From Vibrio sp. Y2-5 (lineage in GTDB: Bacteria; Pseudomonadota; Gammaproteobacteria; Enterobacterales; Vibrionaceae), in contig NZ_JACVEG010000008.1 in assembly GCF_014596725.1 (NCBI RefSeq), positions 1-32,000 of the forward strand: a stretch of DNA of 32,000 nucleotides, read 5' to 3'. The position numbers and the translations under genes were made by a program. Below, in pieces: positions 1,217 through 18,183 of the stretch. Position 1 is the stretch's first letter; each line of letters opens with the position of its first letter. The notes beneath the pieces were generated by a model. The model saw only the letters and a program-made list of their open reading frames with translations, was not told the origin of the DNA and made no database searches.

Positions 1217-1243
1217 TGTCGAAAGACATATTTAATTAAGGAG
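1217..1243 (+). promoter_or_regulatory. GAAA mini-hairpin + AAGGAG module, copy A
   Basis: TGTC-GAAA-GACA (1217-1228), then TATTTAATT, AAGGAG (1238-1243), ATG at 1250. Confidence 0.7.
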
Positions 1244-1249
1244 TAATTC

Positions 1250-1516
1250 ATGGCTAGTCTAATTTGTAGCTGTTGTGGTAATGGTTTTCGCGGGAAACAA
1301 GATTCAGAACATGACCGCGGATTTGGCACCTGTAATAACTGTATTACTACAGTCATTGAACCATTGAACGAACGCTTCATTAAGCAAGGTAAAGACGCAC
1401 TGAAAAAAGCCTCAACACCTGAACGCTGGACACATTTTTGCAGCTGGAACAAAACCAAACAAGACAATTTTATTCTGATGCTATTTCAGAAAGGTGTTCT
1501 TAAATTTGGTTATTAA
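1250..1516 (+). CDS. small zinc-ribbon-like protein (CSCC ... CNNC), function unknown
   Basis: 88-aa ORF with a perfect AAGGAG 6 nt upstream of the ATG. Two Cys clusters near the N-terminus. The overlapping antisense ORF 1165..1467 lacks any RBS. Confidence 0.75.
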   Translation: MASLICSCCGNGFRGKQDSEHDRGFGTCNNCITTVIEPLNERFIKQGKDALKKASTPERWTHFCSWNKTKQDNFILMLFQKGVLKFGY

Positions 1517-1524
1517 CTAATAAA

Positions 1525-1547
1525 GCCGAAAGGCATTAAGCAAGGAG
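1525..1547 (+). promoter_or_regulatory. GAAA mini-hairpin + AAGGAG module, copy B
   Basis: GCC-GAAA-GGC (1525-1534), ATTAAGC, AAGGAG (1542-1547), ATG at 1557. Confidence 0.7.
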
Positions 1548-1556
1548 TAATATACA

Positions 1557-1988
1557 ATGAAAATTTCTAACGTATCGTTTTTGCCAACCCAAAGAGTACG
1601 CAATTTCCTAACCCAATTCATTCCAGAAGAACCTGGATGTTATGAATTGGCTTTAGCTGATGGAAACTATTCCATTGAACATCGCGGACATCGCCCTTGC
1701 AATTTCACGATAGAAAGAGGTAGCGATAATCAGTTGACGTTACACGAACTCGTTGAGTTCTGTGGTGCAGAGGGTGAATGTGCAATTGGAGGGCTAGTTG
1801 AAAGTAATCGATTCGATTTCTCCCTAAGAGCTTGTTATTTTGAGTTCGTTGGAAGATTAGCGATCGAGGCTCCATTCGAAACTGAAGTAAGTGATGTTTT
1901 TGACTTGTTTGCACAGAACATAGTTACCAACTATGAAATTGGTTCTTATGATCTCGTTTCGGTAAAGAAACTAGTTACGGGAGAGTAG
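1557..1988 (+). CDS. hypothetical acidic protein, 143 aa
   Basis: ORF with AAGGAG 9 nt upstream. No recognisable motifs. Confidence 0.75.
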   Translation: MKISNVSFLPTQRVRNFLTQFIPEEPGCYELALADGNYSIEHRGHRPCNFTIERGSDNQLTLHELVEFCGAEGECAIGGLVESNRFDFSLRACYFEFVGRLAIEAPFETEVSDVFDLFAQNIVTNYEIGSYDLVSVKKLVTGE

Positions 1989-2175
1989 CTTATGTTCAGC
2001 AAACGGCAGAGAACGCCATGTGCCATTTAATTAAGCGTGATACTAAAGGTGAGGTTTTAATGTGTACATTGACTCTAACAAAGAGTTAGGTGAACTCTTA
2101 ACAACTTCAGCTCAAAATTCGGCTGAAATTAAAATTGTCTACATGGTAAAAGTTGGAAATCGCTAAGCACATTCT

Positions 2176-2206
2176 GGTTTACGAAATATTTACGTAAACC
2201 ATTTTT
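2176..2206 (+). terminator. hairpin followed by ATTTTT (weak intrinsic-terminator-like or processing hairpin)
   Basis: GGTTTACG / CGTAAACC 8-bp stem (2176-2183 / 2193-2200), AT-rich loop, then ATTTTT. It sits 3 nt before module copy C. Confidence 0.4.
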
Positions 2207-2208
2207 AA

Positions 2209-2232
2209 CACTGAAAAGTGAAAATTAAGGAG
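2209..2232 (+). promoter_or_regulatory. GAAA mini-hairpin + AAGGAG module, copy C
   Basis: CACT-GAAA-AGTG (2209-2220), AAAATT, AAGGAG (2227-2232), ATG at 2238. Confidence 0.7.
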
Positions 2233-2237
2233 AAAAT

Positions 2238-2729
2238 ATGGAAATCATTTTAAATTCGAAAGGGACGATGCCCGTGCATAGATTCGTAGTCGATAAGGCA
2301 TACTTTCTTATGTACGGTCACTACGAGACAGTAACCATTTTAAGTGAAAATACAGAGCTAGTTGTGACAGGTGAGCAGCTTACTCCTATTGACGATTATA
2401 AAATGGATTACCCTAATGTGAGCTTTATCTCTCATGATGAATTCGATACTTTAAGTATTGAATATGAAGATATTCTAAAAACGCGGGTTAAACGTATCAG
2501 CCAAGAAGCCTACAATTTCATGATGGGTTATGTAGACGCAAGACCGACTATTATTGACGGTTTAACCTTCTTCATAACCGAACATGAAATCAGAGCAAAT
2601 TTGGTCAATTGGGTATGTTGTTTTAATAAAGTTTACTTTGAATTTATCGATGAAAAAAATCGCGAAAGCGACTACATCGTTGAACGAGCGAAACAAGAGT
2701 ACAAACGTGTTCTTGAAACTACAGAGTGA
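2238..2729 (+). CDS. hypothetical protein, 163 aa
   Basis: ORF with a strong SD. No recognised family. Confidence 0.75.
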   Translation: MEIILNSKGTMPVHRFVVDKAYFLMYGHYETVTILSENTELVVTGEQLTPIDDYKMDYPNVSFISHDEFDTLSIEYEDILKTRVKRISQEAYNFMMGYVDARPTIIDGLTFFITEHEIRANLVNWVCCFNKVYFEFIDEKNRESDYIVERAKQEYKRVLETTE

Positions 2730-2956
2730 GTGTTATGAGTAACTTAATCGATAGTAAGCAACTCGGTAAACTTATACACCTCCGTGACTCGGCCACCAGC
2801 GACATGTATAAGCTTGTAGCAAACCAGATGGTTAGCGCTATAAATGTAAAGGATGCTAATAGCTTCGAACAAGCAATTGGTGTTTTACAAGCTTTAAACT
2901 TATCTCCTGATGAGTTATTAAAGAAAATGGTTCTCATATTAAAAGAGAAAGCCTAA
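2726..2956 (+). CDS. hypothetical small helical protein, 76 aa
   Basis: GTG at 2726 overlaps the upstream TGA (GTGA coupling); an alternative ATG lies at 2735. Followed directly by a strong terminator. Confidence 0.6.
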   Translation: MSVMSNLIDSKQLGKLIHLRDSATSDMYKLVANQMVSAINVKDANSFEQAIGVLQALNLSPDELLKKMVLILKEKA

Positions 2957-2957
2957 T

Positions 2958-2988
2958 AAAAAAGCCCGCGTACATAGCGGGCTTTTTT
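2958..2988. terminator. bidirectional intrinsic terminator between convergent genes
   Basis: AAAGCCCGC / GCGGGCTTT stem (2961-2969 / 2977-2985), flanked by an A-run upstream and a T-run downstream. Confidence 0.85.
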
Positions 2989-2997
2989 CCTAAACTT

Positions 2998-4284: not shown

Positions 4285-4288
4285 TCTA

Positions 4289-4723: not shown

Positions 4724-4724
4724 G

Positions 4725-5903: not shown

Positions 5904-5987
5904 TAAACCCCTCCTTAAATTGATTGGTAGCAGTATATGCAAATGGGCATACGGTCAACCTTGTATGCCGAGGCAGTAAGGTTAGGA

Positions 5988-6016
5988 TTTACCGGCTTAA
6001 ATTTTAAACCTATAAT
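5988..6016 (+). promoter_or_regulatory. candidate sigma70 promoter for the FKBP gene
   Basis: TTTACC (5988-5993), 17-bp spacer, perfect TATAAT (6011-6016), about 40 nt upstream of ATG 6058. Confidence 0.4.
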
Positions 6017-6057
6017 ACACCAAATATATAACGCTTCACACAATTGTAGGACGCAGA

Positions 6058-6837: not shown

Positions 6838-6870
6838 TACTAAATAACCTTTTGCAAAACCTCTAAGACA

Positions 6871-6902
6871 AACCCCTATCTGACTTTAGATAGGGGTTTT
6901 TT
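6871..6902 (+). terminator. intrinsic terminator
   Basis: AACCCCTATCT / AGATAGGGGTT 11-bp stem with a 6-nt loop, followed by a T-run. Confidence 0.85.
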
Positions 6903-7758: not shown

Positions 7759-9855
7759 TTATCTGGGCATATTACACATAGATAGAAGAGAATCGAAGTT
7801 ATGTGGTTCCTTTTGAGCAAGTTGGAATAGCTCAACTTGATTTTTTATACTTCCATCACCTAGTTGGAACCCATCACAGTAAAAACGATAAGCGGCTTCA
7901 AGTACTGATACTGGTAATTTGGTACCTAAGAACTTATTGTCGATTTTTTCCTGTAAAGAAAATAAGTGTTCACTAATATCCGATACAGCCATTCCGAAAT
8001 CGTCTCCAAGCTGAGTAGCTAAAGAATAAATTTCTTGCTCACTGGTTACCGAAGTGATGTAAAACTGAGGGGTATCACTAGTAGAGCAAGAAAGACCTAT
8101 ATAACCAGGCTCGTTGACAACGGTTCGAATCATATGACCTAAACGCCTGTTTGTACTCTGTAGGGTCTTTGTAAGGTGCTTCTTACCCATTTGTACTAAG
8201 TTAGCTAAAGAATTCAACTCAGGCTCTGTGAACTCCTTTTTCTGGATTAGTTCATTGAAACTAATGTTAGCTAATGGGTTTGAAATGGTTGGTGTGGTTC
8301 TTCGTCCATCGTGAAGTTCTAACGCAGCCAGAAAGAGTTTTTGATCAACGGTTACAGAAATTTCTTCATTGGCACAATCTATGTAACAGGTATATCCATA
8401 TAGCTCTAGTGTATATTGAGCCTTATATTTGGTTTTTGTAGCATTAAAAATCTTAGTTTTGTTCTTTGTTGACCTAGACAAGCTATATAAAGCATCTTTC
8501 AAACGGTTTGCAAAATCTGACACTGAAGAACCTGTTCCAGAGTTTACTAGGAAGAAAGACTCAAAGCTGAATGTATAAGTGCCTTTTTGCCCCATACGAG
8601 TACGTAGGTAAAGATATAGCGCAAAGAAAAGGTCATCAACAGTGAGTATGGAAGGTGGCATTAACCAATGAAATTCTTCACAGAATAACGAATTAAAAAG
8701 CACTTCTGGAAGCTCAACAATATAGTCCATCGTGCTTGCTCCGAACTTACCTTTGCTATTCGTGTACTCAACGCGAGCAAGTTTACTGAAAGGCTTTATT
8801 TCAGTTTCTGTTACTGGCCTGTCACCATCGTTTTCACCAGTTTGCATCAAGGCATTCTTTAAAACAGAGATTTCCTCTTGTTTATGCGGAGTTAATTCCA
8901 CTATGGTTTTCCGAATTCTTTGTAGTGCTTCTCGGCATTCATTTCTCTGAATTCCGCCAAACCCTTTTTTTGTGTTTGGGTAGATTAGAGAAAGAATGTC
9001 ATCGATGTGAAGGTGAGTCCGGTTAACAGGAGGTCTTTTCTGGTAAAGGTAATCATTTAGGCGTGCAACATGTGCATGGAACGTAAGAGTATTTGCAGCA
9101 AAGTAATACTTCAAATCCTTAAATAGCATCACACTGTCTGAGTTGGTCCATGTTGAAACCTCGTAGTCTGTAAGCATGGTTATTTCTTGAGGACCCTGCT
9201 TAAGAGACACTGCCATGGTACCGGTTCTATTTTGTTGTTTATCTGTTGATGCAACTGATACCAGAATGTTCATCAAACCAGAATAGTTATCTTTGATTGC
9301 GATAACTCTTTTTTCATCAGTTGCGATATCAAATGAGCTTGGAATGTAGGAAATTTGATTTCTAATTGCTTGTTTATTTAACTTATTTAAAGCAGGTGAT
9401 AAGGATCCTTCAGATTTCAGAACTTGCAAATTATTACTTCCAGCGGAGTCGATGATAGAATCCAGATTGTCGAGAATTTGACCCGAATACGTAATCGCGG
9501 GATAAATCCGATCAGAATTAGAGTCTTTTACGGTGGGAGTTTCAAAAATGCCCTTAGCTATAAAGAAATGATTTAACAAATTACGACAAACTGTCGTTTT
9601 ACATAGTTCCGACTCAACAATTTCGCTCAATACGTGACTTAGTGGTATGACAGCTTTATGTTGATTCTTTCTAAGCAGTTCTGTAATAAACAGCAGATAT
9701 TTGCTTTCTAGTTTTAAGCCTGCATCATTTAAACGCTTGGATAGAGTAAAGAAGGGGATAACTAGATCATCATTTACGAAGAAAGGATTTAGAAACAATT
9801 TCATGTTCGGACTTGGTTTAAAAGTCTCGTCTAGCTCAATCTCTTTCATCAACAA
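7759..9855 (-). CDS. large Rep-like protein, candidate replication initiator (698 aa; ATG at 9849 is the third codon)
   Basis: Divergent from and adjacent to the GATC-rich AT stretch and the iteron array. The N-terminal PFFTLSK and the central GGIQRNECREALQRIRKTIVEL resemble, from memory, hallmark strings of plasmid initiator families (PFFSLSK; G-x-x-Y-x-x-L-x-x-AL-x-RL-x-x-T). Not verified by search. Confidence 0.5.
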   Translation of the reverse strand: MLMKEIELDETFKPSPNMKLFLNPFFVNDDLVIPFFTLSKRLNDAGLKLESKYLLFITELLRKNQHKAVIPLSHVLSEIVESELCKTTVCRNLLNHFFIAKGIFETPTVKDSNSDRIYPAITYSGQILDNLDSIIDSAGSNNLQVLKSEGSLSPALNKLNKQAIRNQISYIPSSFDIATDEKRVIAIKDNYSGLMNILVSVASTDKQQNRTGTMAVSLKQGPQEITMLTDYEVSTWTNSDSVMLFKDLKYYFAANTLTFHAHVARLNDYLYQKRPPVNRTHLHIDDILSLIYPNTKKGFGGIQRNECREALQRIRKTIVELTPHKQEEISVLKNALMQTGENDGDRPVTETEIKPFSKLARVEYTNSKGKFGASTMDYIVELPEVLFNSLFCEEFHWLMPPSILTVDDLFFALYLYLRTRMGQKGTYTFSFESFFLVNSGTGSSVSDFANRLKDALYSLSRSTKNKTKIFNATKTKYKAQYTLELYGYTCYIDCANEEISVTVDQKLFLAALELHDGRRTTPTISNPLANISFNELIQKKEFTEPELNSLANLVQMGKKHLTKTLQSTNRRLGHMIRTVVNEPGYIGLSCSTSDTPQFYITSVTSEQEIYSLATQLGDDFGMAVSDISEHLFSLQEKIDNKFLGTKLPVSVLEAAYRFYCDGFQLGDGSIKNQVELFQLAQKEPHNFDSLLSMCNMPR

Positions 9856-11646: not shown

Positions 11647-13386
11647 ATGAAACTAAATAAAATCATACAAAATCCATTAAGAAACTATCAACAACGTGTA
11701 GTTACCAAGTTATGGCGGTGGTTTAAGAAAAATAAGATAGGTAACCCACTTATTAAGGTCCCTACTGGGGGCGGTAAAACACACATCCTAGCTCAAATTG
11801 TAATCGACGCACTTTCTTTCAATAGTACTAAGAAAATCCGCATCATCGTACTGACCCAAGATACAACGCTGGTTAAACAGAATTCAGAAAAATTCTTTAA
11901 AATTGCTCCATCCGTTGATGCTGGCGTATTTTCCGCCAAGTTAGATCGTAGAGATACAGAAAATCAGATTATTTTTGCGAGTATTCAGTCTGTTTATAAA
12001 CGTGATGATATGGGCGAATTCGATTTAATTATTGTCGATGAATGCCACCAAATCCCTCCGAAAGGTGATGGGATGTATCAAACCTTCATTAGTAAACAAA
12101 AAGTTGTAAATAAAAAGGTTCGGATTGTAGGGTTAACAGCAACTGATTACCGTCTTACTACTGGCAAACTAACCGACGGTAAGAATCCACTGTTTAAAGA
12201 AGTTGTGGCAGAGGTAACCCTGAAAGAGTTACTAGAGCTCGGGTTTCTTGTACCTATTCGTTACGTTAAAACACCATTTACAGTATCGATGGATAAAGTG
12301 AACGTCCGGGGTTATGACTATAACCGTGACGAAGCCGCAGACGTCATGATGGAAGACAACAGAACCGATGATGCGTTAAACGATACAATTGCTAAAGCGA
12401 GAATGTTTGGCTTAAAAAAATGGAAAATATATTGCGCGAACGTCAAACACTGCGAAGCGGTTCTAGACTATCTAACATCGATGGGAATTGAAGCCAGGGT
12501 GATTGATGGCAATACAAAACAAAAAGCGAGAGATAAAATTTTAGAGGAGTACAGGGACGGTAATTTTACCGCGCTTATCTCATGTGAAACTCTTATAACA
12601 GGTTTTGATGAAACAGCTATTGACCTGATCGTAAACCTTAAACCAACAAAGTCAAAAGGTCGTTGGGTACAGTTGTGTGGCAGAGGAATGCGCCCTCATT
12701 TAATGGGTACAAAGGACGCCAAAAAAGAATGCATGCTTTTAGATTACACTGAGAATACTCATGCGCTTGGCCGTGCAGACATGATTGAGTGGTCTACTGA
12801 CTGTATAGAATCACCGAGCCATTTAAAATCAAGAGTCATTCGCTGCCCTCAGTGTAATGTAGCTCTGAATCGTTATGATCAGCACTGTGATAATTGTGAT
12901 TTCGTCTTTGATTATTCAAGGCCTCTGGTTCAGGCCTCTGAAGCTATCGTTTCCTACTGCGCCAAGGCAGGTTATGAACTTCCAAAAGGACTGTCGCTAT
13001 TTCATATCCATACCGCTGACATAAAGCCAGCATTTATAAATAAACAGCTGTGCCTGCAAATTAGATTCTTTGGTACCGAAGTAGCTCAAAAAGTGAAGAC
13101 TTCTGGAAGTCCTTTCCTTAGTGAGTTCATTCCATTTACCGAGATGAAAGAAGAATTTGTTACGTATTTTACGGACGTAACTGATATCAACGTTATAAGT
13201 CATTTGGTCAAGCCACAAGACTTTGCAAGAGAAGTGGCAAATCGAATAGTTCTACCAGAAGCGGTAATAACGAAACAAAATGAATTTGGGTATAATTACT
13301 CTGTAGCTTACGTACATTCGCAACGTAATAAACTGCATTGGCAAAACGATCAGGAAACTGTTATCAGAGACCTATTAGCCGCTTAA
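11647..13386 (+). CDS. RadD (YejH)-like superfamily 2 DNA helicase with a zinc ribbon, 579 aa
   Basis: Motif I VPTGGGKTH, motif II IVDECH, motif III LTATDYR, helicase-C region ISCETLITGFDETAIDLIVNLKPTKS ... QLCGRGMR, and CPQCN...CDNCDF. Length and motif order parallel E. coli RadD as I recall it. Confidence 0.8.
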   Translation: MKLNKIIQNPLRNYQQRVVTKLWRWFKKNKIGNPLIKVPTGGGKTHILAQIVIDALSFNSTKKIRIIVLTQDTTLVKQNSEKFFKIAPSVDAGVFSAKLDRRDTENQIIFASIQSVYKRDDMGEFDLIIVDECHQIPPKGDGMYQTFISKQKVVNKKVRIVGLTATDYRLTTGKLTDGKNPLFKEVVAEVTLKELLELGFLVPIRYVKTPFTVSMDKVNVRGYDYNRDEAADVMMEDNRTDDALNDTIAKARMFGLKKWKIYCANVKHCEAVLDYLTSMGIEARVIDGNTKQKARDKILEEYRDGNFTALISCETLITGFDETAIDLIVNLKPTKSKGRWVQLCGRGMRPHLMGTKDAKKECMLLDYTENTHALGRADMIEWSTDCIESPSHLKSRVIRCPQCNVALNRYDQHCDNCDFVFDYSRPLVQASEAIVSYCAKAGYELPKGLSLFHIHTADIKPAFINKQLCLQIRFFGTEVAQKVKTSGSPFLSEFIPFTEMKEEFVTYFTDVTDINVISHLVKPQDFAREVANRIVLPEAVITKQNEFGYNYSVAYVHSQRNKLHWQNDQETVIRDLLAA

Positions 13387-13454
13387 TACTGCATACTTGA
13401 CCGTGCCTCAAATCCGTTATGATTTACCTATACGCAATAAACAGGTAAAGACAG

Positions 13455-13751
13455 ATGACCCTTACAGAAACAACTCTCCACTTAAGTACTACAAAGTTAG
13501 GTCTGTATCTTCGTTTTGAATCTGTCGAATCCGAAGATTTGCTTTTCATAATGATTGCAGAGGAACCTAGATATGACGACGAACTAAATAATGAAATCGG
13601 GCACCTTGCTAATTTTAGCTCTACAAACATGGGCGATTTGAAATGTTGGGTGGTAAAAAACGCTTCTGAAAGATTGGTTTCTATTACAAACGCATTGAAC
13701 CGATATTTATCAAAAAAGATGAATAAGTTGAGCAAGATAACTCGATTGTGA
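13455..13751 (+). CDS. hypothetical protein, 98 aa
   Basis: ORF in the same orientation as its neighbours, with a weak SD. The antisense ORF 13424..13759 is low-complexity. Confidence 0.5.
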   Translation: MTLTETTLHLSTTKLGLYLRFESVESEDLLFIMIAEEPRYDDELNNEIGHLANFSSTNMGDLKCWVVKNASERLVSITNALNRYLSKKMNKLSKITRL

Positions 13752-13814
13752 AATTGCATCCTAAGATTAAACGGTTTAATATTTAAATGATTATGTCATT
13801 CATGGCAATACCTC

Positions 13815-13843
13815 GCTGAAAAGCACTTAATTTAATCAAGGAG
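13815..13843 (+). promoter_or_regulatory. GAAA mini-hairpin + AAGGAG module, copy D
   Basis: GCT-GAAA-AGC (13815-13824), ACTTAATTTAATC, AAGGAG (13838-13843), ATG at 13850. Confidence 0.65.
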
Positions 13844-13849
13844 TCACAA

Positions 13850-13981
13850 ATGAAAGTAAAAGTCATCGACTTGAACCATTCACTGTTTAGCAAAACACAC
13901 CGACCTAAATACCGAAGCAATAGAACACCACCAGTTCATCGCACAGAGACTCACCCTCAAAAAAGAAAGGTGGCTTTATGA
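13850..13981 (+). CDS. small basic protein, 43 aa (not in the ORF track)
   Basis: MKVKVIDLNHSLFSKTHRPKYRSNRTPPVHRTETHPQKRKVAL. Perfect SD 6 nt upstream. Its stop overlaps the next ATG (ATGA at 13978-13981). Confidence 0.55.
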   Translation: MKVKVIDLNHSLFSKTHRPKYRSNRTPPVHRTETHPQKRKVAL

Positions 13982-14253
13982 CGGTACAATTCGAACGCGA
14001 AGAATTGGAAAGAACTTTGATCAAGCTCTTGAAAGAATCCAAGCCACAAGAATTTGCCCAACAAGCCTCTGTACTTCTAGGTGGAGCTCATATTCGTGTG
14101 CTGGCGTCAAAATCAGGCCCGATATTCATGTTAGACGATGTACCAAAAGGGATGTCCGAAACATTGATGATACTGACCAGAACGGACAGTCAAGTTAAAT
14201 CCGGACTCGATCAGCTTAGCAAGTTAAAGGAACAACATTTTCATAAGGGGTAA
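13978..14253 (+). CDS. hypothetical protein, 91 aa
   Basis: ATGA-coupled to the upstream small ORF. Confidence 0.65.
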   Translation: MTVQFEREELERTLIKLLKESKPQEFAQQASVLLGGAHIRVLASKSGPIFMLDDVPKGMSETLMILTRTDSQVKSGLDQLSKLKEQHFHKG

Positions 14254-14257
14254 TACT

Positions 14258-14485
14258 ATGATTTATGTATTCTTTAGTATGCTTCGAGAGCCATTACGCC
14301 TAGTTGTTTTTCTAATTGGATTAGTAGCAATATCTACTTATTTAACCAATGGAGATATGAATGAGGCTGTTGGTGGCTTTATCGCAGCGCTAAAACCATT
14401 GAAAGACCAAATAGTTAAGGCGCTACAAATTGTAGTTCCAGCTGCTTTAGAGATGGTAAGTGAAGCAATGAAAGGCTTGAGCTAA
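14258..14485 (+). CDS. small membrane protein, 75 aa
   Basis: AAGGGG SD 8 nt upstream. One clear TM segment (LRLVVFLIGLVAISTYL). Confidence 0.65.
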   Translation: MIYVFFSMLREPLRLVVFLIGLVAISTYLTNGDMNEAVGGFIAALKPLKDQIVKALQIVVPAALEMVSEAMKGLS

Positions 14486-14509
14486 CAGATTAAAGAAAGG
14501 AATCACTCG

Positions 14510-14746
14510 ATGTTTCTTATGAGAATCTTTGTTAAGTTCAAACCTGGCATATGTAAAGGCCTTCTGTTACTTCTGGCATTTACTATCTTACTGCCAATAA
14601 TCGGGGCGTATTTTGAATGGAACTCAAAGGTGAAATTTGTACTAGGGGCGTTATATCTCTGGGTTTTACTAATTACATGCTTTGATTTTGTTTTGTTCGA
14701 AACACCCCGACGTATTACACAGTGGATAAAGAACAAATGGCGATAG
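14510..14746 (+). CDS. small membrane protein, 78 aa, two TM segments
   Basis: Hydrophobic stretches LLLLLAFTILLPIIGAYF and VLGALYLWVLLITCFDFVLF. AAAGGAA lies upstream. Confidence 0.6.
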   Translation: MFLMRIFVKFKPGICKGLLLLLAFTILLPIIGAYFEWNSKVKFVLGALYLWVLLITCFDFVLFETPRRITQWIKNKWR

Positions 14747-14769
14747 GCCACGTTGTTATTGATATTCAG

Positions 14770-14802
14770 GTGCATTGTTTTACTTCGGTATTTACAATGC
14801 AC
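14770..14802 (+). other. long hairpin capped by a TTCG tetraloop, at the start of a ~300-bp non-coding gap
   Basis: GTGCATTGT / ACAATGCAC 9-bp stem enclosing TAC-TTCG-GTA. A T5 run follows 8 nt later (14811-14815). Confidence 0.6.
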
Positions 14803-15052
14803 TCTGAGTATTTTTGATCATACTACAGCTCTAAATGCTGGTATTCGATGGCGACAAAACACTTGTTTATCCTAAAACAGCATTGTATTCTGAAGACTCT
14901 TATCATACAGCTTAAAAGCTGTAATCCTTCTCTTAAGCATTCAATCCATGCTATCCATACCGAGTGTTGAAATAGGTGTAGTTACGTTAACTAGACGTGC
15001 TTATACCTATTTTTGCACTATCGCAAAATTGCGCACTTGCCGTTAGCAAGCA

Positions 15053-15078
15053 TTCCGAAAGGAAATTTAATCAAGGGG
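15053..15078 (+). promoter_or_regulatory. GAAA mini-hairpin + SD module, copy E
   Basis: TTCC-GAAA-GGAA (15053-15064), ATTTAATC, AAGGGG (15073-15078), ATG at 15085. Preceded by the hairpin CTTGC-CGTTA-GCAAG (15036-15050). Confidence 0.65.
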
Positions 15079-15084
15079 ACTATC

Positions 15085-15771
15085 ATGCCTTATTTACCAG
15101 CCTACATGGGCGAATTTTGGTACGGCATTGCCGAGTTAGCTTTTTGGGTTATTGCAGCAGTTATGCTTGGATACTTATTAAGAAGACTCGTGAATGAAGG
15201 TGTCTACATTGTTGTAGATATTTTTATGCGTTTACCGATGATGCTAGTAGATCAATTTATCTCTAGCATGCAGCAAATGTTCTATAAGTTCGGTGAAGAA
15301 CGAGCAAAACGTAAACGTAGTAAGGAGGAAACAGATACTGTTGAAGAAGAAACTGTTCATATGACAGAATCTCCTGCAGAATCGAAACCATCCAAAGGTT
15401 TTGCTCAGTACAACGTTAGCATGTCTGTTAAAGACATAGTCAACGAAGTACCGAAGCAACCTAAAGTGGCTAAACCTCAAGTAAAGCATGAAGCTGACTT
15501 GAGCCAACCTGCTTACCTACGTAAAGGTTTATTTGTTTCTGGTGCATTTGGAAATAAAGAAATCGTTGAAAATACTTTTGCTAAACAGCCTCTTCCAGAG
15601 ACTGTGACTAACCAAAGTAAACGTGATCAGTTACGTAAACAACGTGCTGAATTTGTGAAGAATAAATCTTCGGATAAAAATCCTGCAAAATTTCAGAGTC
15701 AATCTGGTTCACGCAGAAAAGCAATGCGCAATAGCACGTACTCATCTAATGGGACAGTGTCACACGCATAA
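15085..15771 (+). CDS. membrane-anchored Lys/Glu-rich protein (228 aa) carrying an FtsZ-C-terminal-peptide-like motif
   Basis: The start at ATG 15085 is supported by the SD module; the track's 15013 start has none. TM segment FWYGIAELAFWVIAAVMLGYLL. The rest looks low-complexity or disordered and contains DLSQPAYLRKGL. Confidence 0.7.
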   Translation: MPYLPAYMGEFWYGIAELAFWVIAAVMLGYLLRRLVNEGVYIVVDIFMRLPMMLVDQFISSMQQMFYKFGEERAKRKRSKEETDTVEEETVHMTESPAESKPSKGFAQYNVSMSVKDIVNEVPKQPKVAKPQVKHEADLSQPAYLRKGLFVSGAFGNKEIVENTFAKQPLPETVTNQSKRDQLRKQRAEFVKNKSSDKNPAKFQSQSGSRRKAMRNSTYSSNGTVSHA

Positions 15772-15780
15772 GTAATAAAA

Positions 15781-15807
15781 AAGAGGTAATGTATCATTAC
15801 CTCTTTT
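15781..15807. terminator. intrinsic terminator
   Basis: AAGAGGTAATG / CATTACCTCTT 11-bp stem flanked by an A-run and a T-run. Confidence 0.8.
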
Positions 15808-15878
15808 CCAAGTCTTAATCCCAATGGTACAGCATTGGAATTGAGATTTTTTAACCCGCACTGATGCGGATTTTAACC

Positions 15879-15909
15879 TGACGAAAGTCAACCTACATTA
15901 AGCAAGGAG
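15879..15909 (+). promoter_or_regulatory. GAAA mini-hairpin + AAGGAG module, copy F
   Basis: TGAC-GAAA-GTCA (15879-15890), ACCTACATTAAGC, AAGGAG (15904-15909), ATG at 15915. Preceded by CCGCA-CTGA-TGCGG (15856-15869). Confidence 0.7.
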
Positions 15910-15914
15910 TCAAA

Positions 15915-16415
15915 ATGAATAACTGTCTATTTTTAGAGGGTAATTTAGCCGAAGACTTATACATCTGCGGCAACGCTGATAATACTGTCGTGAAGTTAGC
16001 TGTGATCACTAATGAGACTTTTCGAGATAAGGCCACTGGTGAACAACGTCAAACTTCCGTTCGACACAGTGTTTCAGTGTTTGGATGGAAAGCTAAACAA
16101 ATCGTCGATAATGCGGAATATTTTCGTAAGGGCGCTTTGGTTCATGTGAAAGCAAAAATGGTTACTGTTAAATCTCATCGTTATGAAGGAATTTATGAGT
16201 ACCAGCCACATGTGGACAACACCACTTATACATCTGTAGATGCAGTCGTACGTTTTACAAAAAATACTGTTAACAGCAGTGGGTCACAACGCGCACAACC
16301 AGTTCGTCAACGTCCACAACCTACTCAGCAGTATTCGCCACGTAGTGAGAGCCTTCCTCAATCGAACGGTCAGCAAATGCCAGCACCGCAGTTTGAAGAA
16401 TACGAAGAATTTTAA
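15915..16415 (+). CDS. ssb: single-stranded DNA-binding protein
   Basis: The OB-fold region aligns by eye with E. coli SSB: ETFRDKATGEQRQ...HSVSVFGWKAKQ...YFRKGALVHVKAKM versus ESWRDKATGEMKE...HRVVLFGKLAEV...YLRKGSQVYIEGQL. Q/P-rich linker and acidic C-terminal tip FEEYEEF. Confidence 0.9.
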   Translation: MNNCLFLEGNLAEDLYICGNADNTVVKLAVITNETFRDKATGEQRQTSVRHSVSVFGWKAKQIVDNAEYFRKGALVHVKAKMVTVKSHRYEGIYEYQPHVDNTTYTSVDAVVRFTKNTVNSSGSQRAQPVRQRPQPTQQYSPRSESLPQSNGQQMPAPQFEEYEEF

Positions 16416-16455
16416 CTAAACCAATATGGAACGCTTGAATAGTGTTCCATTTATT

Positions 16456-16481
16456 CCCGAAAGGGCTAAGTAATCAAGGAG
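16456..16481 (+). promoter_or_regulatory. GAAA mini-hairpin + AAGGAG module, copy G
   Basis: CCC-GAAA-GGG (16456-16465), CTAAGTAATC, AAGGAG (16476-16481), ATG at 16490. Preceded by ATGGAAC ... GTTCCAT (16426-16450). Confidence 0.7.
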
Positions 16482-16489
16482 AAATACCC

Positions 16490-18034
16490 ATGTCAATGAT
16501 CAAAACATTTGCAACAAAATATGGTTTTAACGAAATAGAAGAGATGCTTTGTGTATTGAAGTCAAAATGCTTTCCTCACTACACCAAGTTCTGCTCTGAT
16601 TCTGTATTAACCTTAATTCAGGCGGCGTTAACACGTGATCTGAATCCGTTTAATCATGAAATCTATGTTGTAGCAGACAAAGATTTAAATGGTGAAGTCG
16701 ATGGATACAGAACACAAATCGGCATGTCTGGTTGCCTACGTATTGCAAACCGACAATCATCTTACCAGGGCGTAGAGTTTGTCTATCCTGACTCGGGAGA
16801 CACCATAACTATAAACGTAGAGAGCAAGCTACGTAACGGAACAGTTAATACCGTTACTTGCTTTGCTTGGTTAGAAGCTCGTGTTTATGTGGATGGAATT
16901 GAACGTCCATTTGTTGCACGTGAATACTTCGATGAGTGCTTTAGTGAAGTGAGTCCTGCTTGGATACAGAAACCAAAACGTCGTTTACGTCAGACTACAT
17001 TTGCTCAGGCTATCGAACTAGCTTTCTACGGTAAAGATAACCCTGAAAATTCTGTCTTGGAAATGAACATTTCAGAGAAAGAAATGAATGAGTTTGAGCA
17101 ACTGGTAAATACCGTTGGTTTCAAGTTTAAGTCTGAAACCAAACCTGAACCTGTAGATGGATCGCGTATCAAATCGAACGTTGATGAGTTAATTACGAAG
17201 CAACAAAGTGCTGCACAAGGACACAAACCTCTTGAGAAAGAGAATGTGGAATCTCATAGCGCTCCCGTTGCTAAAGAATTACCAAAAACATCTACCGCTG
17301 ATTCAGTGGAAGCTGAAACTGATAAATCAGTTGAGGCGGAAAAGCTAGAGACCGTTAACGAAGTTTCAACCCAATCACCTAGTGATAGTGATGAACCTGA
17401 CTTAACAGTACCTGCGTATATTCGCAAAGGTCTAGAGCTTAATAGCGAAAACCAAGCTGAAGCTGGCGCAAAGGTTCTTGATGAAGCTCAATCTGAAGCA
17501 GGAACCCAAGCAAATGATTCTGAAACAACTAAAACTGAAGAAGTCGAAAAAGAGGCTGACTCGGTAGAGGAAATTTCAGATGAGGATGCTGAACGCTATC
17601 AAGGTATGTTTGGGCAAGACACTGTTGAAGATGGTGAGACTGGATTTCAACCTCCATTTGTAATGGAAAATGAAATTCCTTTCAAAACAGATTCAGTAGT
17701 GACTGAGCCTGTAGTTGAAACTCAAGCTGTAGAGCCTGAGTCGACTACGCAAACGAATGTTGAATCTAGCTTGCCATCGGAAGTTATTGAGTATCTCAAT
17801 GCTACTATTAGCAAAGAGGATATTGATAACCACGATAGTATTATGTTTATCGACATGTTCATTGATAGCTATTCGTCAGATTCTGAAATGTTCAATGACG
17901 TCCAAGTTGCGGGCTTTGTTATGAGTTTACAAGGTAAAGATAAGCAATTCGCTATTCAGCGTCTGTTTAAGGAAAATGTAATCTCAGAAGAACAGCTTCT
18001 TAACTTTGTCGAAAAAGTGAACATAGCAGCGTAA
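16490..18034 (+). CDS. bet: lambda Bet (Red-beta)-family single-strand annealing protein with a long acidic extension and an extra C-terminal domain (514 aa)
   Basis: The N-terminal ~200 aa align by eye with lambda Bet. DLNPFNHEIYVV...GYRTQIGMSGCLRIANRQSSYQGVEF matches GLNPWTKEIYAF...VPVVGVDGWSRIINENQQFDGMDF. EYFDEC...IQKPKRRLRQTTFAQAIELAF matches EWMDEC...QSHPKRMLRHKAMIQCARLAF. The start is moved to ATG 16490 on the basis of the SD module. Confidence 0.85.
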   Translation: MSMIKTFATKYGFNEIEEMLCVLKSKCFPHYTKFCSDSVLTLIQAALTRDLNPFNHEIYVVADKDLNGEVDGYRTQIGMSGCLRIANRQSSYQGVEFVYPDSGDTITINVESKLRNGTVNTVTCFAWLEARVYVDGIERPFVAREYFDECFSEVSPAWIQKPKRRLRQTTFAQAIELAFYGKDNPENSVLEMNISEKEMNEFEQLVNTVGFKFKSETKPEPVDGSRIKSNVDELITKQQSAAQGHKPLEKENVESHSAPVAKELPKTSTADSVEAETDKSVEAEKLETVNEVSTQSPSDSDEPDLTVPAYIRKGLELNSENQAEAGAKVLDEAQSEAGTQANDSETTKTEEVEKEADSVEEISDEDAERYQGMFGQDTVEDGETGFQPPFVMENEIPFKTDSVVTEPVVETQAVEPESTTQTNVESSLPSEVIEYLNATISKEDIDNHDSIMFIDMFIDSYSSDSEMFNDVQVAGFVMSLQGKDKQFAIQRLFKENVISEEQLLNFVEKVNIAA

Positions 18035-18038
18035 AACT

Positions 18039-18060
18039 GTAGGCACGATTAAGTGCCTAC
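18039..18060 (+). other. hairpin immediately after the bet stop codon
   Basis: GTAGGCAC-GATTAA-GTGCCTAC, 8-bp stem, no T-run. Confidence 0.6.
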
Positions 18061-18066
18061 ACCGTA

Positions 18067-18090
18067 ACCGAAAGGTGTTCAATTAAGGAG
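18067..18090 (+). promoter_or_regulatory. GAAA mini-hairpin + AAGGAG module, copy H (orphan: no start codon follows)
   Basis: ACC-GAAA-GGT (18067-18076), GTTCAATT, AAGGAG (18085-18090), then TCAAAGACTAATAAG with no ATG, GTG or TTG at RBS distance. Confidence 0.6.
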
Positions 18091-18102
18091 TCAAAGACTA
18101 AT

Positions 18103-18130
18103 AAGCTTGGTGGGTTCATCCACCAAGCTT
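18103..18130 (+). other. perfect 11-bp-stem hairpin
   Basis: AAGCTTGGTGG-GTTCAT-CCACCAAGCTT. Not followed by a T-run. Lies between the orphan module H and module I. Confidence 0.7.
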
Positions 18131-18154
18131 GGAAGTCAAATAACTCAATGGAGT

Positions 18155-18183
18155 TTGCCGAAAGGCAACCAATGATCAAGGAG
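18155..18183 (+). promoter_or_regulatory. GAAA mini-hairpin + AAGGAG module, copy I
   Basis: TTGCC-GAAA-GGCAA (18155-18168), CCAATGATC, AAGGAG (18178-18183), ATG at 18190. Confidence 0.7.

What the first reader, a model, noticed from the sequence alone, without database searches (positions are those of the whole stretch)
1217..18183. Recurrent GAAA-loop mini-hairpin with covarying stems, fused to an idealised ribosome-binding site, in front of the small-gene, ssb and bet cistrons
Nine plus-strand copies share one architecture: a 3-5 bp stem, GAAA, the complementary stem, 6-13 nt ending in WTTAAKY-like sequence, then AAGGAG (once AAGGGG), then 5-9 nt, then ATG. The copies are:
- TGTC/GACA at 1217-1228, ATG 1250
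- GCC/GGC at 1525-1534, ATG 1557
- CACT/AGTG at 2209-2220, ATG 2238
- GCT/AGC at 13815-13824, ATG 13850
- TTCC/GGAA at 15053-15064, ATG 15085
- TGAC/GTCA at 15879-15890, ATG 15915 (ssb)
- CCC/GGG at 16456-16465, ATG 16490 (bet)
- ACC/GGT at 18067-18076, no ORF
- TTGCC/GGCAA at 18155-18168, ATG 18190

The stem sequences all differ yet remain complementary, while the loop is invariant. That is compensatory covariation and points to a folded single strand rather than a duplex operator. Several copies sit just after a second, larger hairpin (2176-2200, 15036-15050, 15856-15869, 16426-16450, 18039-18060). None of the transfer genes, the rep gene, the helicase or the minus-strand genes has the module.

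A rough estimate suggests a bare 3-bp stem with a GAAA loop should occur only a few times per strand in 32 kb. I did see two such hits inside CDSs. Nine copies positioned within 13 nt of a perfect SD is therefore far beyond chance.

Two readings are possible:
- An RNA element: a GNRA-tetraloop 5' hairpin acting as a translational operator or enhancer, a mRNA-stabilising cap after processing, or the site of a dedicated RNA-binding regulator that co-controls an establishment regulon.
- A single-stranded DNA element: d(C-GAAA-G)-closed mini-hairpins are known to be unusually stable, and conjugative DNA enters the recipient as a single strand.

I do not recognise this as a described cis-regulatory family.
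Basis: partly seen in the sequence, partly recalled or inferred. Interest (0 to 1): 0.85.

Follow-up and report, generated by a model that had tools for sequence, protein, structure and literature searches.

The report
GAAA mini-hairpin ribosome-site module on plasmid mRNAs
A tiny RNA hairpin with an invariant GAAA loop sits at a fixed distance in front of the ribosome-binding sites of about nine unrelated genes on a large Vibrio conjugative plasmid and recurs in its rare relatives, which marks it as a real, undescribed mRNA control element whose partner and exact function are still unknown.

Summary
All nine plus-strand copies are at the stated coordinates: a 3-5 bp stem, a GAAA loop, a 6-13 nt A/U-rich spacer, then AAGGAG or AAGGGG. 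Eight are followed by ATG. Shuffles predict 0.004 such modules and 8 are seen. GAAA is the only loop tied to ribosome sites.

The window is part of a 196-kb Vibrio sp. Y2-5 plasmid. It carries an RctB-like replication gene and ICE-type transfer genes.

The same module occurs in two related metagenomic plasmids (9 and 4 copies) and once in a Vibrio agarivorans relative. That gives 23 instances, all with GAAA loops. Stems differ even at orthologous genes.

Copies follow gene orientation, including minus-strand genes. They mark the cistrons in their two gene clusters that have an upstream gap of 40 nt or more. This favours an mRNA element over transferred-strand ssDNA.

No Rfam family or paper matched. 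In-silico removal of the hairpin does not change ribosome-site accessibility.

My best reading is a loop-specific handle at the 5' edge of the ribosome footprint that co-controls translation. The partner is unknown.

Novelty: a new variant of a known kind. Interest: moderate to high.

The parts
1217..1252 (+). Module 1. Hairpin TGTC-GAAA-GACA (1217-1228), spacer tatttaatt, SD AAGGAG (1238-1243), ATG 1250. The gene encodes an 88-aa Cys-rich protein.
   Evidence: RNA pair probability 0.81-1.0 in the native context. CM score 40.4 bits.
1525..1559 (+). Module 2. Hairpin GCC-GAAA-GGC, spacer attaagc, SD AAGGAG (1542), ATG 1557. The gene encodes a DUF2787 protein.
   Evidence: The orthologous DUF2787 gene in plasmid B (L001 596) has the same GCC-GAAA-GGC hairpin at 564-573, although the proteins are only 31% identical.
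2209..2240 (+). Module 3. Hairpin CACT-GAAA-AGTG, spacer aaaatt, SD AAGGAG (2227), ATG 2238. It is preceded by a terminator-like hairpin at 2175-2201.
   Evidence: (I16).
13815..13852 (+). Module 4. Hairpin GCT-GAAA-AGC, spacer acttaatttaatc, SD AAGGAG (13838), ATG 13850. The gene encodes a 43-aa highly basic peptide.
   Evidence: Orthologous peptide genes carry AAGCT-GAAA-AGCTT (L163 12399) and TTTC-GAAA-GAAA (L004 3829).
15053..15087 (+). Module 5. Hairpin TTCC-GAAA-GGAA, spacer atttaatc, SD AAGGGG (15073), ATG 15085. The gene encodes a 228-aa protein. It is preceded by a hairpin at 15036-15050.
15879..15917 (+). Module 6. Hairpin TGAC-GAAA-GTCA, spacer acctacattaagc, SD AAGGAG (15904), ATG 15915. 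The gene is ssb. It is preceded by a terminator-like hairpin at 15856-15869.
16456..16492 (+). Module 7. Hairpin CCC-GAAA-GGG, spacer ctaagtaatc, SD AAGGAG (16476), ATG 16490. The gene encodes a RecT/Bet-family protein of 514 aa. It is preceded by a hairpin at 16426-16450.
   Evidence: The ortholog in plasmid B has TGCC-GAAA-GGCA, also preceded by a larger hairpin (L001 5944).
18067..18090 (+). Module 8, an orphan. Hairpin ACC-GAAA-GGT, spacer gttcaatt, SD AAGGAG (18085), no start codon. It is followed by an 11-bp-stem hairpin at 18105-18132 and looks like an emptied gene cassette.
   Evidence: In its native context this hairpin is out-competed by another fold (probability 0.03).
18155..18192 (+). 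Module 9. Hairpin TTGCC-GAAA-GGCAA, spacer ccaatgatc, SD AAGGAG (18178), ATG 18190. The gene encodes an 89-aa protein.
1112..1129 (+). Two overlapping GAAA mini-hairpins without an SD, ACG-GAAA-CGT and GTC-GAAA-GAC. They lie about 100 nt upstream of module 1. GTCGAAAGACAT is identical to the sequence at 1218-1229.
   Evidence: D19.
13397..13423 (+). Probable operon promoter, TTGACC-N15-TATGAT. The same arrangement precedes the orthologous operon in plasmids B and C.
   Evidence: Read from the sequence. It was not found by the consensus scan, which needs a 16-18 nt spacer.
19061..19083 (+). Strong intrinsic terminator, GGCCACCTTCGGTGGCC followed by T6. It closes the module-bearing operon (13455-19052).

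Best explanation
**What it is.** The module is a cis-acting element of the mRNA, not of the DNA. It consists of a 3-5 bp hairpin capped by a GAAA (GNRA-type) tetraloop, a 6-13 nt unstructured A/U-rich spacer, and a near-perfect Shine-Dalgarno sequence. The 3' edge of the hairpin lies about 18-26 nt before the start codon, at the 5' border of the region that an initiating 30S subunit covers.

**Where it is used.** In the two module-bearing clusters (1250-2729 and the operon 13455-19052) it sits in front of the cistrons that cannot be translationally coupled to the gene before them. It therefore forms a standard 'start here' cassette for unrelated, probably establishment-type genes: ssb, recT/bet, DUF2787, small ORFs, and in relatives a DNA methylase and an Eco57I-like enzyme.

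**How it most likely works.** The hairpin is most likely a loop-specific recognition handle. One partner reads the GAAA loop on a short stem of any sequence and so controls initiation or mRNA survival at all these cistrons together. The partner could be a plasmid-encoded RNA-binding factor or the initiating ribosome itself.

**Shown and inferred.**
- Shown: existence, non-randomness, conservation in related plasmids, covarying stems, gene-linked orientation, and fixed spacing.
- Inferred: action at the RNA level.
- Inferred more weakly: specific recognition, and an effect on translation.
- Unknown: the identity of the partner.
For: **Non-randomness.**
- 8 modules are observed against 0.004 expected.
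- GAAA is the only SD-linked loop in each of three plasmids, and it is not enriched in relatives L003, L004 and L006.
- None of 261 strong SD..ATG sites in 452 kb of control phage DNA has it.

**Conservation.**
- There are 23 instances: 9 in the window, 9 in plasmid B (L001 and L162), 4 in plasmid C (L163) and 1 in L004.
- Core proteins of these plasmids are only 37-61% identical to those of the window.

**Covariation and geometry.**
- Pairs 1-3 are formed in 23 of 23 copies using 3-5 pair types each.
- Pairs 5-6 are at chance level, so the stem is kept short.
- The covariation score is 0.60 against 0.21 in shuffles, and at most 0.16 when the partners are slid.
- Orthologous sites keep the hairpin with different stems. 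For recT it is CCC/GGG versus TGCC/GGCA. For the 43-aa peptide gene it is GCT/AGC versus AAGCT/AGCTT versus TTTC/GAAA.
- The distance from loop end to ATG is 21-30 nt in 20 of the 21 copies where it could be measured.

**RNA level.**
- The orientation follows the gene, including two minus-strand copies before minus-strand genes.
- One stem has a G.U pair.
- The hairpin is predicted to form with probability 0.55-1.0 in 8 of 9 native mRNA contexts.
- sigma70-like promoters are depleted inside the operon (6 against 15 expected). A single promoter and one strong terminator bracket it, so most copies are intercistronic on a long mRNA.

**Recognition rather than mere stability.**
- The loop is GAAA in 23 of 23 copies, although other GNRA or UUCG loops would be equally stable.
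- The closing pair is C-G in 18 of 23.
- Copies without an SD exist (1112, 1120, L001 4128).
- Breaking or deleting the hairpin in silico leaves the RBS opening energy unchanged (6.5 versus 6.1 and 6.3 kcal/mol).
- Related plasmids that lack the hairpin carry their own plasmid-specific conserved sequences around the SD at orthologous genes.
Against: - No experiment and no transcript data exist. RNA-level action is inferred from geometry and orientation only.
- No RNA-binding protein was identified. Pfam, PHROGs and NCBIfam are silent on the small ORFs.
- The only candidate noticed is the conserved 43-aa basic peptide. It is also present in L006, which has no GAAA modules.
- The copies within a plasmid may not be independent, because modules could spread by duplication or gene conversion. 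Loop invariance therefore overstates the number of independent trials.
- The instances were collected by requiring at least 3 pairs, so the pair counts are partly circular. Only the tests are free of this bias.
- A GAAA loop on a C-G closing pair is also one of the most stable ways to make a 3-bp hairpin in an AT-rich genome. A purely structural role therefore remains possible.
- Only three or four plasmids carry the module.
Confidence: 0.45

Rival explanations
1. **Passive structural element.** The mini-hairpin needs no dedicated partner. It could act as a 5' barrier that protects the A/U-rich ribosome landing pad from 5'-end-dependent or scanning RNase E. This would apply either after processing or at the primary 5' end. 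Alternatively it could define an unstructured standby or S1-binding spacer. Either way it would raise the stability and translation of each independently initiated cistron.
For: - The module RBSs are more open than those of other genes in the window (mean opening energy 6.5 against 9.1 kcal/mol).
- The spacer is A/U-rich and the SD is close to ideal.
- 14 of the 23 copies have a substantial hairpin (dG of -6 kcal/mol or lower) within the 50 nt upstream. That hairpin could be the 3' end of the preceding processed unit.
- Leading regions of plasmids are reported to be adapted for translational efficiency (PMC13478746).
- C(GAAA)G gives a stable hairpin with very few pairs.
- From established knowledge: 5' stem-loops stabilise E. 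coli mRNAs, and A/U-rich leaders enhance translation.
Against: - A barrier would work as well or better with longer stems or other stable loops. Yet the stems never exceed 5 bp and the loop is GAAA in 23 of 23 copies.
- In-silico disruption or deletion of the hairpin does not change RBS accessibility.
- Hairpins of -1.4 to -6 kcal/mol are weak obstacles.
- No conserved cleavage motif lies 5' of the hairpins.
Confidence: 0.3
2. **Ribonuclease processing signal.** The hairpin and the A/U-rich spacer together form a site for an endoribonuclease, such as RNase E or G or a plasmid enzyme. The enzyme cuts the long operon mRNA into monocistronic units and so sets differential or transient expression.
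For: - The arrangement of larger hairpin, short linker, mini-hairpin and AUU-rich spacer recurs in both plasmids.
- Most spacers contain RN-WUU-like sequences. This was read, and the RNase E motif is recalled from the literature.
Against: - AU-rich sequence matches such a loose motif by chance.
- The fixed distance to the start codon, rather than to the upstream gene end, is not explained.
- Module 1 lies in a first-cistron leader.
Confidence: 0.1
3. **Antitermination site (nut/boxB-like).** A small basic plasmid protein binds the GNRA hairpin on the nascent RNA. This lets RNA polymerase read through the terminator-like hairpins scattered through the operon.
For: - Lambda boxB folds as a GNRA-like loop bound by an arginine-rich peptide (established knowledge).
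- Terminator-like hairpins with U-rich tails lie inside the operon, at 2175-2201, 15856-15869 and 16426-16450.
- A conserved 43-aa peptide with 11 Lys/Arg residues is encoded as the second gene.
Against: - The loop has 4 nt, not 5.
- There is no conserved boxA-like sequence 5' of the hairpins.
- There are six copies per operon, each locked to an SD/ATG at 21-30 nt. Antitermination does not require this.
- The copies lie after, not before, the adjacent terminator-like hairpin.
- The peptide is also present in L006, which has no hairpins.
Confidence: 0.06
4. **Single-stranded DNA element.** d(C-GAAA-G) mini-hairpins form on the transferred or lagging strand. There they serve as priming, protection or hairpin-promoter signals during conjugative entry.
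For: - DNA parameters also predict the hairpin as the minimum-energy fold in 8 of 9 copies.
- 18 of 23 copies have the C-G closing pair of the unusually stable d(GCGAAAGC) type. The stability is recalled knowledge; the counts are.
- The element is conjugative.
Against: - The orientation follows the gene on both DNA strands.
- The position is tied to SD and ATG.
- If the genes are read from the T-strand, as in known leading regions (PMC11541004), the T-strand carries TTTC rather than GAAA.
- Known ssDNA promoters are long hairpins that contain -35 and -10 boxes, not elements of 10-14 nt (PMC11541004).
- Five copies have U-A or A-U closing pairs.
Confidence: 0.05

Closest known systems
Intercistronic extra-stable tetraloop hairpins of phage T4, C(UUCG)G (recalled from the literature, not tested here)
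   Same: Both are short hairpins capped by an unusually stable tetraloop with a C-G closing pair. Both recur in intercistronic regions of a mobile genome.
   Different: - The loop here is GAAA, not UUCG.
- The stems here are only 3-5 bp and covary.
- The hairpin is locked 21-30 nt upstream of the start codon and fused to a strong SD.
- It is restricted to one gene set of a plasmid family.
Translational operator hairpins bound by a dedicated protein (RNA-phage coat protein operators; phage T4 RegA regulon; phage Mu Com)
   Same: Both are small RNA signals at or next to the ribosome-binding site. In the RegA case they are shared by several unrelated genes, which lets one factor control them together.
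   Different: - No binding protein has been identified here.
- The hairpin lies upstream of the SD and start codon and does not include them.
- Recognition would have to be of the loop and the shape only, because the stems vary.
5'-terminal stabilising stem-loops and obstacles to RNase E (for example the ompA leader)
   Same: Both are a small stem-loop 5' of an A/U-rich RBS region. Both have a plausible protective effect.
   Different: - Those elements must sit at the very 5' end, and they tolerate any stable hairpin.
- Here most copies are internal to a long operon mRNA, the loop is invariant and the stems are weak.
- The 5' ends have not been mapped.
Lambda-type boxB / nut antitermination sites
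   Same: Both are short stems with a GNRA-fold purine loop. A small basic protein is encoded nearby.
   Different: - This is a tetraloop, not a pentaloop.
- There is no boxA.
- There are many copies per operon.
- The spacing to the start codon is fixed.
ssDNA promoters (Frpo/ssi) of plasmid leading regions (PMC11541004)
   Same: Both are folded single-strand signals that serve early or establishment genes such as ssb on conjugative elements.
   Different: - Frpo elements are long DNA hairpins that mimic a duplex promoter on the transferred strand.
- The present element is 10-14 nt, contains no promoter boxes, follows gene orientation on both strands and abuts the SD.
Essential GNRA tetraloop of type 2 picornavirus IRESs, which contacts initiator tRNA (PMC13084055)
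   Same: Both involve a GNRA tetraloop upstream of the start site on an mRNA. In the IRES it is used as a direct contact in ribosome recruitment.
   Different: - The IRES is eukaryotic, and its tetraloop is embedded in a large structured domain.
- There is no evidence here for any contact with the ribosome or tRNA. This is an analogy only.

Membership tests
Any Rfam 15 family | Covariance-model match at or near the gathering score | tested here: not met
   There were 0 hits at gathering thresholds over the whole window. At E<=5 over 13300-19100 there were only four chance-level hits, none on a module.
Lambda-type nut site (boxA + boxB) | boxB is a 5-bp stem with a 5-nt GNRNA loop | tested here: not met
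   The loop is exactly GAAA (4 nt) in 23 of 23 copies, and the stems are 3-5 bp.
Lambda-type nut site (boxA + boxB) | A conserved boxA sequence a few nt 5' of the hairpin | tested here: not met
   No column is conserved in the 8-10 nt 5' of the stem.
Lambda-type nut site (boxA + boxB) | An arginine-rich N-like protein that binds the hairpin | tested here: inconclusive
   A 43-aa basic peptide is encoded at 13850-13981 and is conserved in position in the relatives. Binding cannot be tested here. The peptide is also present in a relative without hairpins.
Intrinsic (Rho-independent) terminator | A G+C-rich stem of 5 bp or more followed by a U-tract | tested here: not met
   The stems are 3-5 bp and are followed by a mixed A/U spacer rather than a T-run. 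No module is reported by the terminator scan.
Frpo/ssi single-stranded DNA promoter | A long imperfect hairpin that carries -35 and -10 hexamers in its stem, on the transferred strand | tested here: not met
   The element is 10-14 nt with no hexamers. The copies lie on both DNA strands according to gene direction. The definition is taken from PMC11541004.
Extraordinarily stable DNA mini-hairpin d(GCGAAAGC) | A C-G pair closing a GAAA loop, formed in single-stranded DNA | tested here: inconclusive
   18 of 23 copies have the C-G closing pair, and DNA folding predicts the hairpin. Whether the DNA is ever single-stranded on this strand is unknown, and the gene-linked orientation argues against it.
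CsrA/RsmA binding site | A GGA motif presented in a hairpin loop, usually two sites | tested here: not met
   The loop is GAAA. A CAAGG(A/G) core, close to CARGGA, overlaps the SD in 6 of 9 window copies (5 as CAAGGA, 1 as CAAGGG). It is single-stranded and is not the conserved hairpin.
Phage N4-type hairpin promoter | A 5-7 bp stem with a 3-nt loop on the template strand, used by a dedicated RNA polymerase | tested here: not met
   The loop has 4 nt and lies on the coding strand, and the stems are 3-5 bp. No RNA polymerase gene was found in the window. The definition is recalled from the literature.
5'-terminal mRNA stabiliser hairpin | A hairpin within a few nt of the transcript's 5' end | not testable with these tools
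   This needs 5'-end mapping. sigma70-like promoters are not found directly upstream of the modules.
Integron attC recombination site | A 55-140 nt imperfect palindrome with RYYYAAC / GTTRRRY core sites at cassette 3' ends | tested here: not met
   The element is 10-14 nt, lies at the 5' end of genes, and has no GTTRRRY core.

The most novel reading that the evidence does not exclude
The GAAA mini-hairpin is a plasmid-private translational operator or enhancer. A plasmid-encoded factor, or the initiating ribosome/initiator-tRNA complex itself, would read the GAAA loop at the 5' edge of the 30S footprint. The conserved small basic peptide encoded as the second gene of the operon is one candidate for the factor. 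The partner would switch a whole set of unrelated establishment genes (ssb, recT, DUF2787, methylase, small ORFs) on or off together. Sister plasmids would use different private RBS 'flavours' for the same purpose. This would be a post-transcriptional counterpart of the ssDNA-promoter logic of classical leading regions.
Probability: 0.3. Interest if true: 0.8.

Novelty: new variant of a known kind. Interest (0 to 1): 0.6.

Why it matters
- **A new layer of control.** Early plasmid genes decide whether a conjugative element survives entry into a new cell. Their control has been studied mainly at the level of ssDNA promoters, and recently codon usage (PMC11541004, PMC13478746). A shared, conserved RNA handle in front of the ribosome sites of such genes would add a post-transcriptional layer.
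- **Easy to test.** The element is very small (10-14 nt plus spacer). It has a clear mutational test set (stem, compensatory, loop and spacing mutants) and a built-in comparison, because sister plasmids use other motifs. Function should be readily testable.
- **A portable part.** It could also be useful as a compact expression part for Vibrio.
- **Scope.** Its present known range is narrow, at three to four rare marine plasmids, and this tempers its general importance.

Tried and rejected
**Dead ends**
- DNA-level searches of the 13-19.5 kb region against PLSDB plasmids and GenBank phages found no match.
- The RecT-like protein gave nothing in genome contigs, whether queried as a single sequence or as an alignment. 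It gave nothing in the 5.8-billion-protein search.
- The metagenome scan with the DsbC-like alignment returned a single contig, probably the same contig as L003.
- The host contig could not be fetched beyond the window; three look-ups failed. Copies elsewhere on the 196-kb plasmid, oriT and the relaxase therefore remain unseen.
- PLSDB holds only distant relatives of the Rep protein (27% identity or less) and one L006-type plasmid.

**Tests with negative or uninformative results**
- The covariance model R1 recovers only its training copies (23 bits or more). It finds nothing new in the window or in L003, L006 and L007.
- A pattern scan of viral contigs returned about 120 single, chance-level hits. 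A few phages have repeated long GC-rich GAAA hairpins before SDs, which is a different, non-covarying repeat.
- The insulation test showed no change in RBS opening energy after breaking or deleting the hairpin.
- RNA versus DNA folding energies do not discriminate.
- The search for a trans-acting factor was silent for the small ORFs in Pfam, PHROGs and NCBIfam.
- The first operon protein (13455-13751) folded with pLDDT 74 from a single sequence. It had no significant PDB match, with the best E-value at 0.29.

**Ideas considered and dropped**
- A sigma70 promoter in front of each module. No consensus sites were found, and promoter-like sites are depleted.
- A -10 reading of TTTAAT. The transcript would then start inside the SD.
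- A tetraloop-receptor (CCUAAG/UAUGG) partner in cis. No consistent motif was seen.
- An integron attC-like site, a CsrA site and a terminator. Their defining features are not met (see the membership tests).

Full report
**1. What the window is**

Protein domain searches show a conjugative plasmid of a marine gammaproteobacterium. The relevant genes are:

| Coordinates | Gene product |
|---|---|
| 7759-9855, minus strand | RctB-like replication initiator |
| 10658-11617 | Tus/Ter-like protein |
| 11647-13386 | DEAD-box helicase |
| 15915-16415 | SSB |
| 16490-18034 | RecT/Bet-family protein |
| 19196-21517 | Topoisomerase III |
| 21614-22426 | DsbC-like protein |
| 22426 to end of window | ICE-type transfer genes (DUF4400/DtrJ, RAQPRD, DUF2976, DUF3487 and further genes syntenic with ICE-type T4SS genes of the relatives) |

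The topoisomerase and the helicase are 100% identical to proteins of Vibrio sp. Y2-5 that lie on a 196,019-bp contig. Nothing similar at the DNA level is in the plasmid or phage collections.

**2.

All nine plus-strand copies are at the stated coordinates with the stated stems.

- Dinucleotide shuffles give 5.1 +/- 2.3 GAAA hairpins per strand; 14 are observed.
- The shuffles give 0.004 hairpins followed by an SD and a start codon; 8 are observed.
- Eight of the ten AAGGAG/AAGGGG..ATG sites on the plus strand have the hairpin.
- No other tetraloop, and no other loop of 3-6 nt, is associated with ribosome sites.
- A test that does not pre-select for pairing gives the same answer. Whenever a GAAA lies 5-20 nt upstream of a strong SD in the window, it is flanked by at least 3 complementary pairs. 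In 452 kb of unrelated phage loci, 0 of 26 such GAAAs are (0 of 141 with a broad SD definition).

Small corrections to the finding:

- Five further plus-strand GAAA hairpins exist.
- Two of them are tandem, overlapping copies without an SD at 1112-1129, about 100 nt upstream of the first module.

**3. It is conserved in relatives**

Relatives were found through the topoisomerase and the helicase.

| Element | Loci | Identity to window proteins | Module copies |
|---|---|---|---|
| Plasmid B (one metagenome) | L001, L161, L162 | topoisomerase 52%, helicase 61% | 9 |
| Plasmid C (another sample) | L160, L163 | topoisomerase 50%, helicase 58% | 4 |
| Vibrio agarivorans relative | L004 | topoisomerase 38% | 1 |
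| Other relatives | L003, L006 | topoisomerase 37-50% | 0 |

Plasmid B carries seven copies on L001 and two on L162.

Across the 23 instances:

- The loop is GAAA in all 23.
- The stems are 3 bp (9 copies), 4 bp (11) or 5 bp (3) and never longer.
- The closing pair is C-G in 18, U-A in 4 and A-U in 1.
- At least a dozen different stem sequences occur.
- The distance from loop end to ATG is 21-30 nt in 20 of the 21 copies where it could be measured.

Orthologous genes keep the element although intergenic sequence is otherwise unalignable:

- DUF2787 has GCC/GGC in both the window and plasmid B.
- recT has CCC/GGG versus TGCC/GGCA. In both plasmids it is preceded by a larger, unrelated hairpin.
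- The small basic peptide gene has GCT/AGC, AAGCT/AGCTT or TTTC/GAAA. Plasmid B has a variant there, GCT-AAAA-AGC, which can also fold as AAAAA-GCAA-UUUUU.

The pair counts exceed the shuffled and slid controls. Because the instances were collected by requiring pairing, I rest the statistical case instead.

**4. RNA or DNA**

Three things point to the mRNA.

- *Position.* The element is placed relative to the SD and start codon.
- *Orientation.* It always has the orientation of the gene it precedes. In plasmid B, two copies lie on the opposite DNA strand in front of two minus-strand genes (L162 8129-8138 and 7613-7626). A signal of the transferred strand should be confined to one strand.
- *Location within transcripts.* It lies inside long transcription units. 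The right-hand cluster has one promoter, TTGACC-N15-TATGAT at 13397-13423, and the same arrangement precedes the orthologous operon in plasmids B and C. It has one strong terminator at 19061-19077. Internal sigma70-like sites are depleted, with 6 found against 15 expected.

Supporting observations:

- One stem uses a G.U pair.
- RNA folding predicts the hairpin with probability 0.55-1.0 in 8 of 9 native contexts.
- DNA parameters fold it too, so energetics do not discriminate.
- If these are leading-region genes read from the T-strand, as described for other plasmids (PMC11541004), the T-strand would carry the TTTC complement.
- oriT and the relaxase are not in the window, so the transferred strand is unknown.

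**5. Where it is used**

In the operon 13455-19052 the module precedes every cistron with an upstream gap of 74 nt or more: 13850, 15085, 15915, 16490 and 18190. It is absent from cistrons that overlap or abut the previous gene, namely 13978, 14258, 14510 and 18417. The left cluster behaves the same way at 1250, 1557 and 2238.

Genes outside these two clusters lack it. These are rep, the helicase, topB with its own promoter, the DsbC-like gene and the transfer genes.

In the relatives, the genes served include a cytosine methylase, an Eco57I-like enzyme, recT and small ORFs.

In 14 of the 23 instances a substantial hairpin (dG of -6 kcal/mol or lower) lies in the 50 nt upstream. Nine of these are strong and well defined (z of -3.4 or lower), and some have a U-rich tail.

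The orphan copy at 18067 has an SD but no start codon and runs straight into an 11-bp-stem hairpin. It looks like a cassette (module, ORF, end hairpin) that has lost its ORF.

**6. How it may work**

*The passive-insulator idea was tested in silico.* Module RBSs are more open than those of other genes (6.5 against 9.1 kcal/mol). Breaking or deleting the hairpin does not change this (6.1 and 6.3 kcal/mol).

*Several features suggest recognition rather than stability alone:*

- The loop sequence is invariant although other loops are equally stable.
- The stem is kept short.
- The hairpin sits at a fixed place at the 5' border of the ribosome footprint.
- Copies without an SD exist.
- Sister plasmids have different private motifs around the SD at orthologous genes: 'GATATAAAGGAA' in L004 and 'TTAATAAATnATAGGGGAAAA' in L006.

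I therefore favour a loop-specific handle for one partner that co-controls initiation at these cistrons (confidence 0.45).

*Rivals:*

| Reading | Confidence |
|---|---|
| Purely structural stabiliser or enhancer | 0.30 |
| Ribonuclease processing signal | 0.10 |
| nut-like antitermination site | 0.06 |
| ssDNA element | 0.05 |

*No partner was identified.* The small ORFs have no family matches. The conserved 43-aa basic peptide is a candidate, but it also occurs in L006, which has no hairpins. The first operon protein gave no significant fold match.

**7. Comparison with what is known**

No Rfam family matches, even at E<=5, and four full-text searches found no description. The closest known things, and why this is not a member of each, are:

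- T4's intercistronic C(UUCG)G hairpins, which have a different loop and no locked spacing to the start codon.
- Protein-bound translational operators, for which no binding protein is known here.
- 5' stabiliser stem-loops, which require a 5' terminus that has not been mapped here.
- Lambda boxB, which has a pentaloop and a boxA, both absent here.
- Frpo ssDNA promoters, which are long promoter-mimicking hairpins.

The defining features of the terminator, boxB, Frpo, CsrA-site, N4-promoter and attC classes were tested and not met.

Recent work shows that leading regions are tuned for translational efficiency through codon usage (PMC13478746). That fits the idea of a tuned initiation cassette, but the paper does not describe this element.

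An essential GNRA tetraloop that contacts initiator tRNA in a viral IRES (PMC13084055) is a distant precedent for a tetraloop acting directly in ribosome recruitment.

**8. Verdict**

This is a real, conserved, covarying, undescribed mRNA motif, and a new variant of the known kind 'RBS-proximal or intercistronic mRNA hairpin'.

- The mechanism is unresolved.
- The known range is three to four rare marine plasmids.
- Interest is 0.6.

Noticed in passing
window 1-280 and 924-1007: There are about 110-bp direct repeats here, three in tandem plus one dispersed copy. Each contains AAAAGACATAGTTGTCGATCACAAC, which includes the inverted repeat GTTGT-CGATC-ACAAC. 'AAAGACAT' occurs 7 times in 1-1230, including inside the first mini-hairpin. 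This could be an iteron, centromere or oriT-like array next to the left module cluster.
   Followed up: partly
window 15085-15771 and 16490-18034: The 228-aa protein and the RecT-like protein share the motif PAY[IL]RKGL. It resembles the conserved C-terminal peptide of FtsZ; this is recalled from the literature and was not tested. The RecT-like protein also has a long acidic C-terminal extension with a weak NCBIfam SigF hit (26 bits).
   Followed up: no
window 13397-13423; L001 2601-2627; L163 11388-11414: The operon promoter has near-consensus hexamers but an unusually short 15-nt spacer. The sequences are TTGACC-N15-TATGAT, TTGACA-N15-TACAAT and TTGACA-N15-TATAAT in the three plasmids.
   Followed up: partly
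window 13850-13981; L001 3054-3182; L163 12431-12565; L004 3855-3986; L006 5909-5995: A very basic peptide of 28-44 aa is encoded immediately after the conserved 98-105-aa protein in all five plasmids. It was not called as a gene in L001 or L006. Its sequence diverges strongly between plasmids.
   Followed up: partly
L004 5040-8180; L006 5880-9210; L003 5600-8720: Related plasmids without the hairpin have their own repeated motifs at the small-gene starts. L004 has 'GATATAAAGGAAnnAAC-ATG', L006 has 'TTAATAAATnATAGGGGAAAAnCC-ATG', and L003 has a 'GGTGTA' motif 40-60 nt upstream.
   Followed up: partly
L052 175 and 6017; L087 1722 and 2118: Some phage contigs repeat a long G+C-rich GAAA hairpin about 8 nt before an SD and ATG (GCCCCC-GAAA-GGGGGC or GGCCCC-GAAA-GGGGCC). 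The flanks are identical, so this is a repeated sequence without covariation.
   Followed up: no
window 14747-15084: This is a 338-nt stretch without a convincing ORF inside the operon. It contains a possible internal promoter, TTGTTT-N17-TATTCT, near 14865-14895.
   Followed up: no
L001 4128-4145: A GAAA hairpin with a 7-bp stem (TCTAGTC-GAAA-GACTAGA) lies in an intergenic region. No SD follows it.
   Followed up: no
L162 2310-2320: Upstream of the Eco57I-like gene of plasmid B the hairpin is CCG-AAA-CGG, within ACCGAAACGGA. It is a triloop variant at a site where plasmid C has a canonical TCA-GAAA-TGA module.
   Followed up: no
L165 (NZ_CP071854.1, Vibrio sp. SCSIO 43155 plasmid, 230,575 bp): This is a complete relative of the L006 type. 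PLSDB types it as 'non-mobilizable' although it carries a full set of ICE-type conjugation genes.
   Followed up: no
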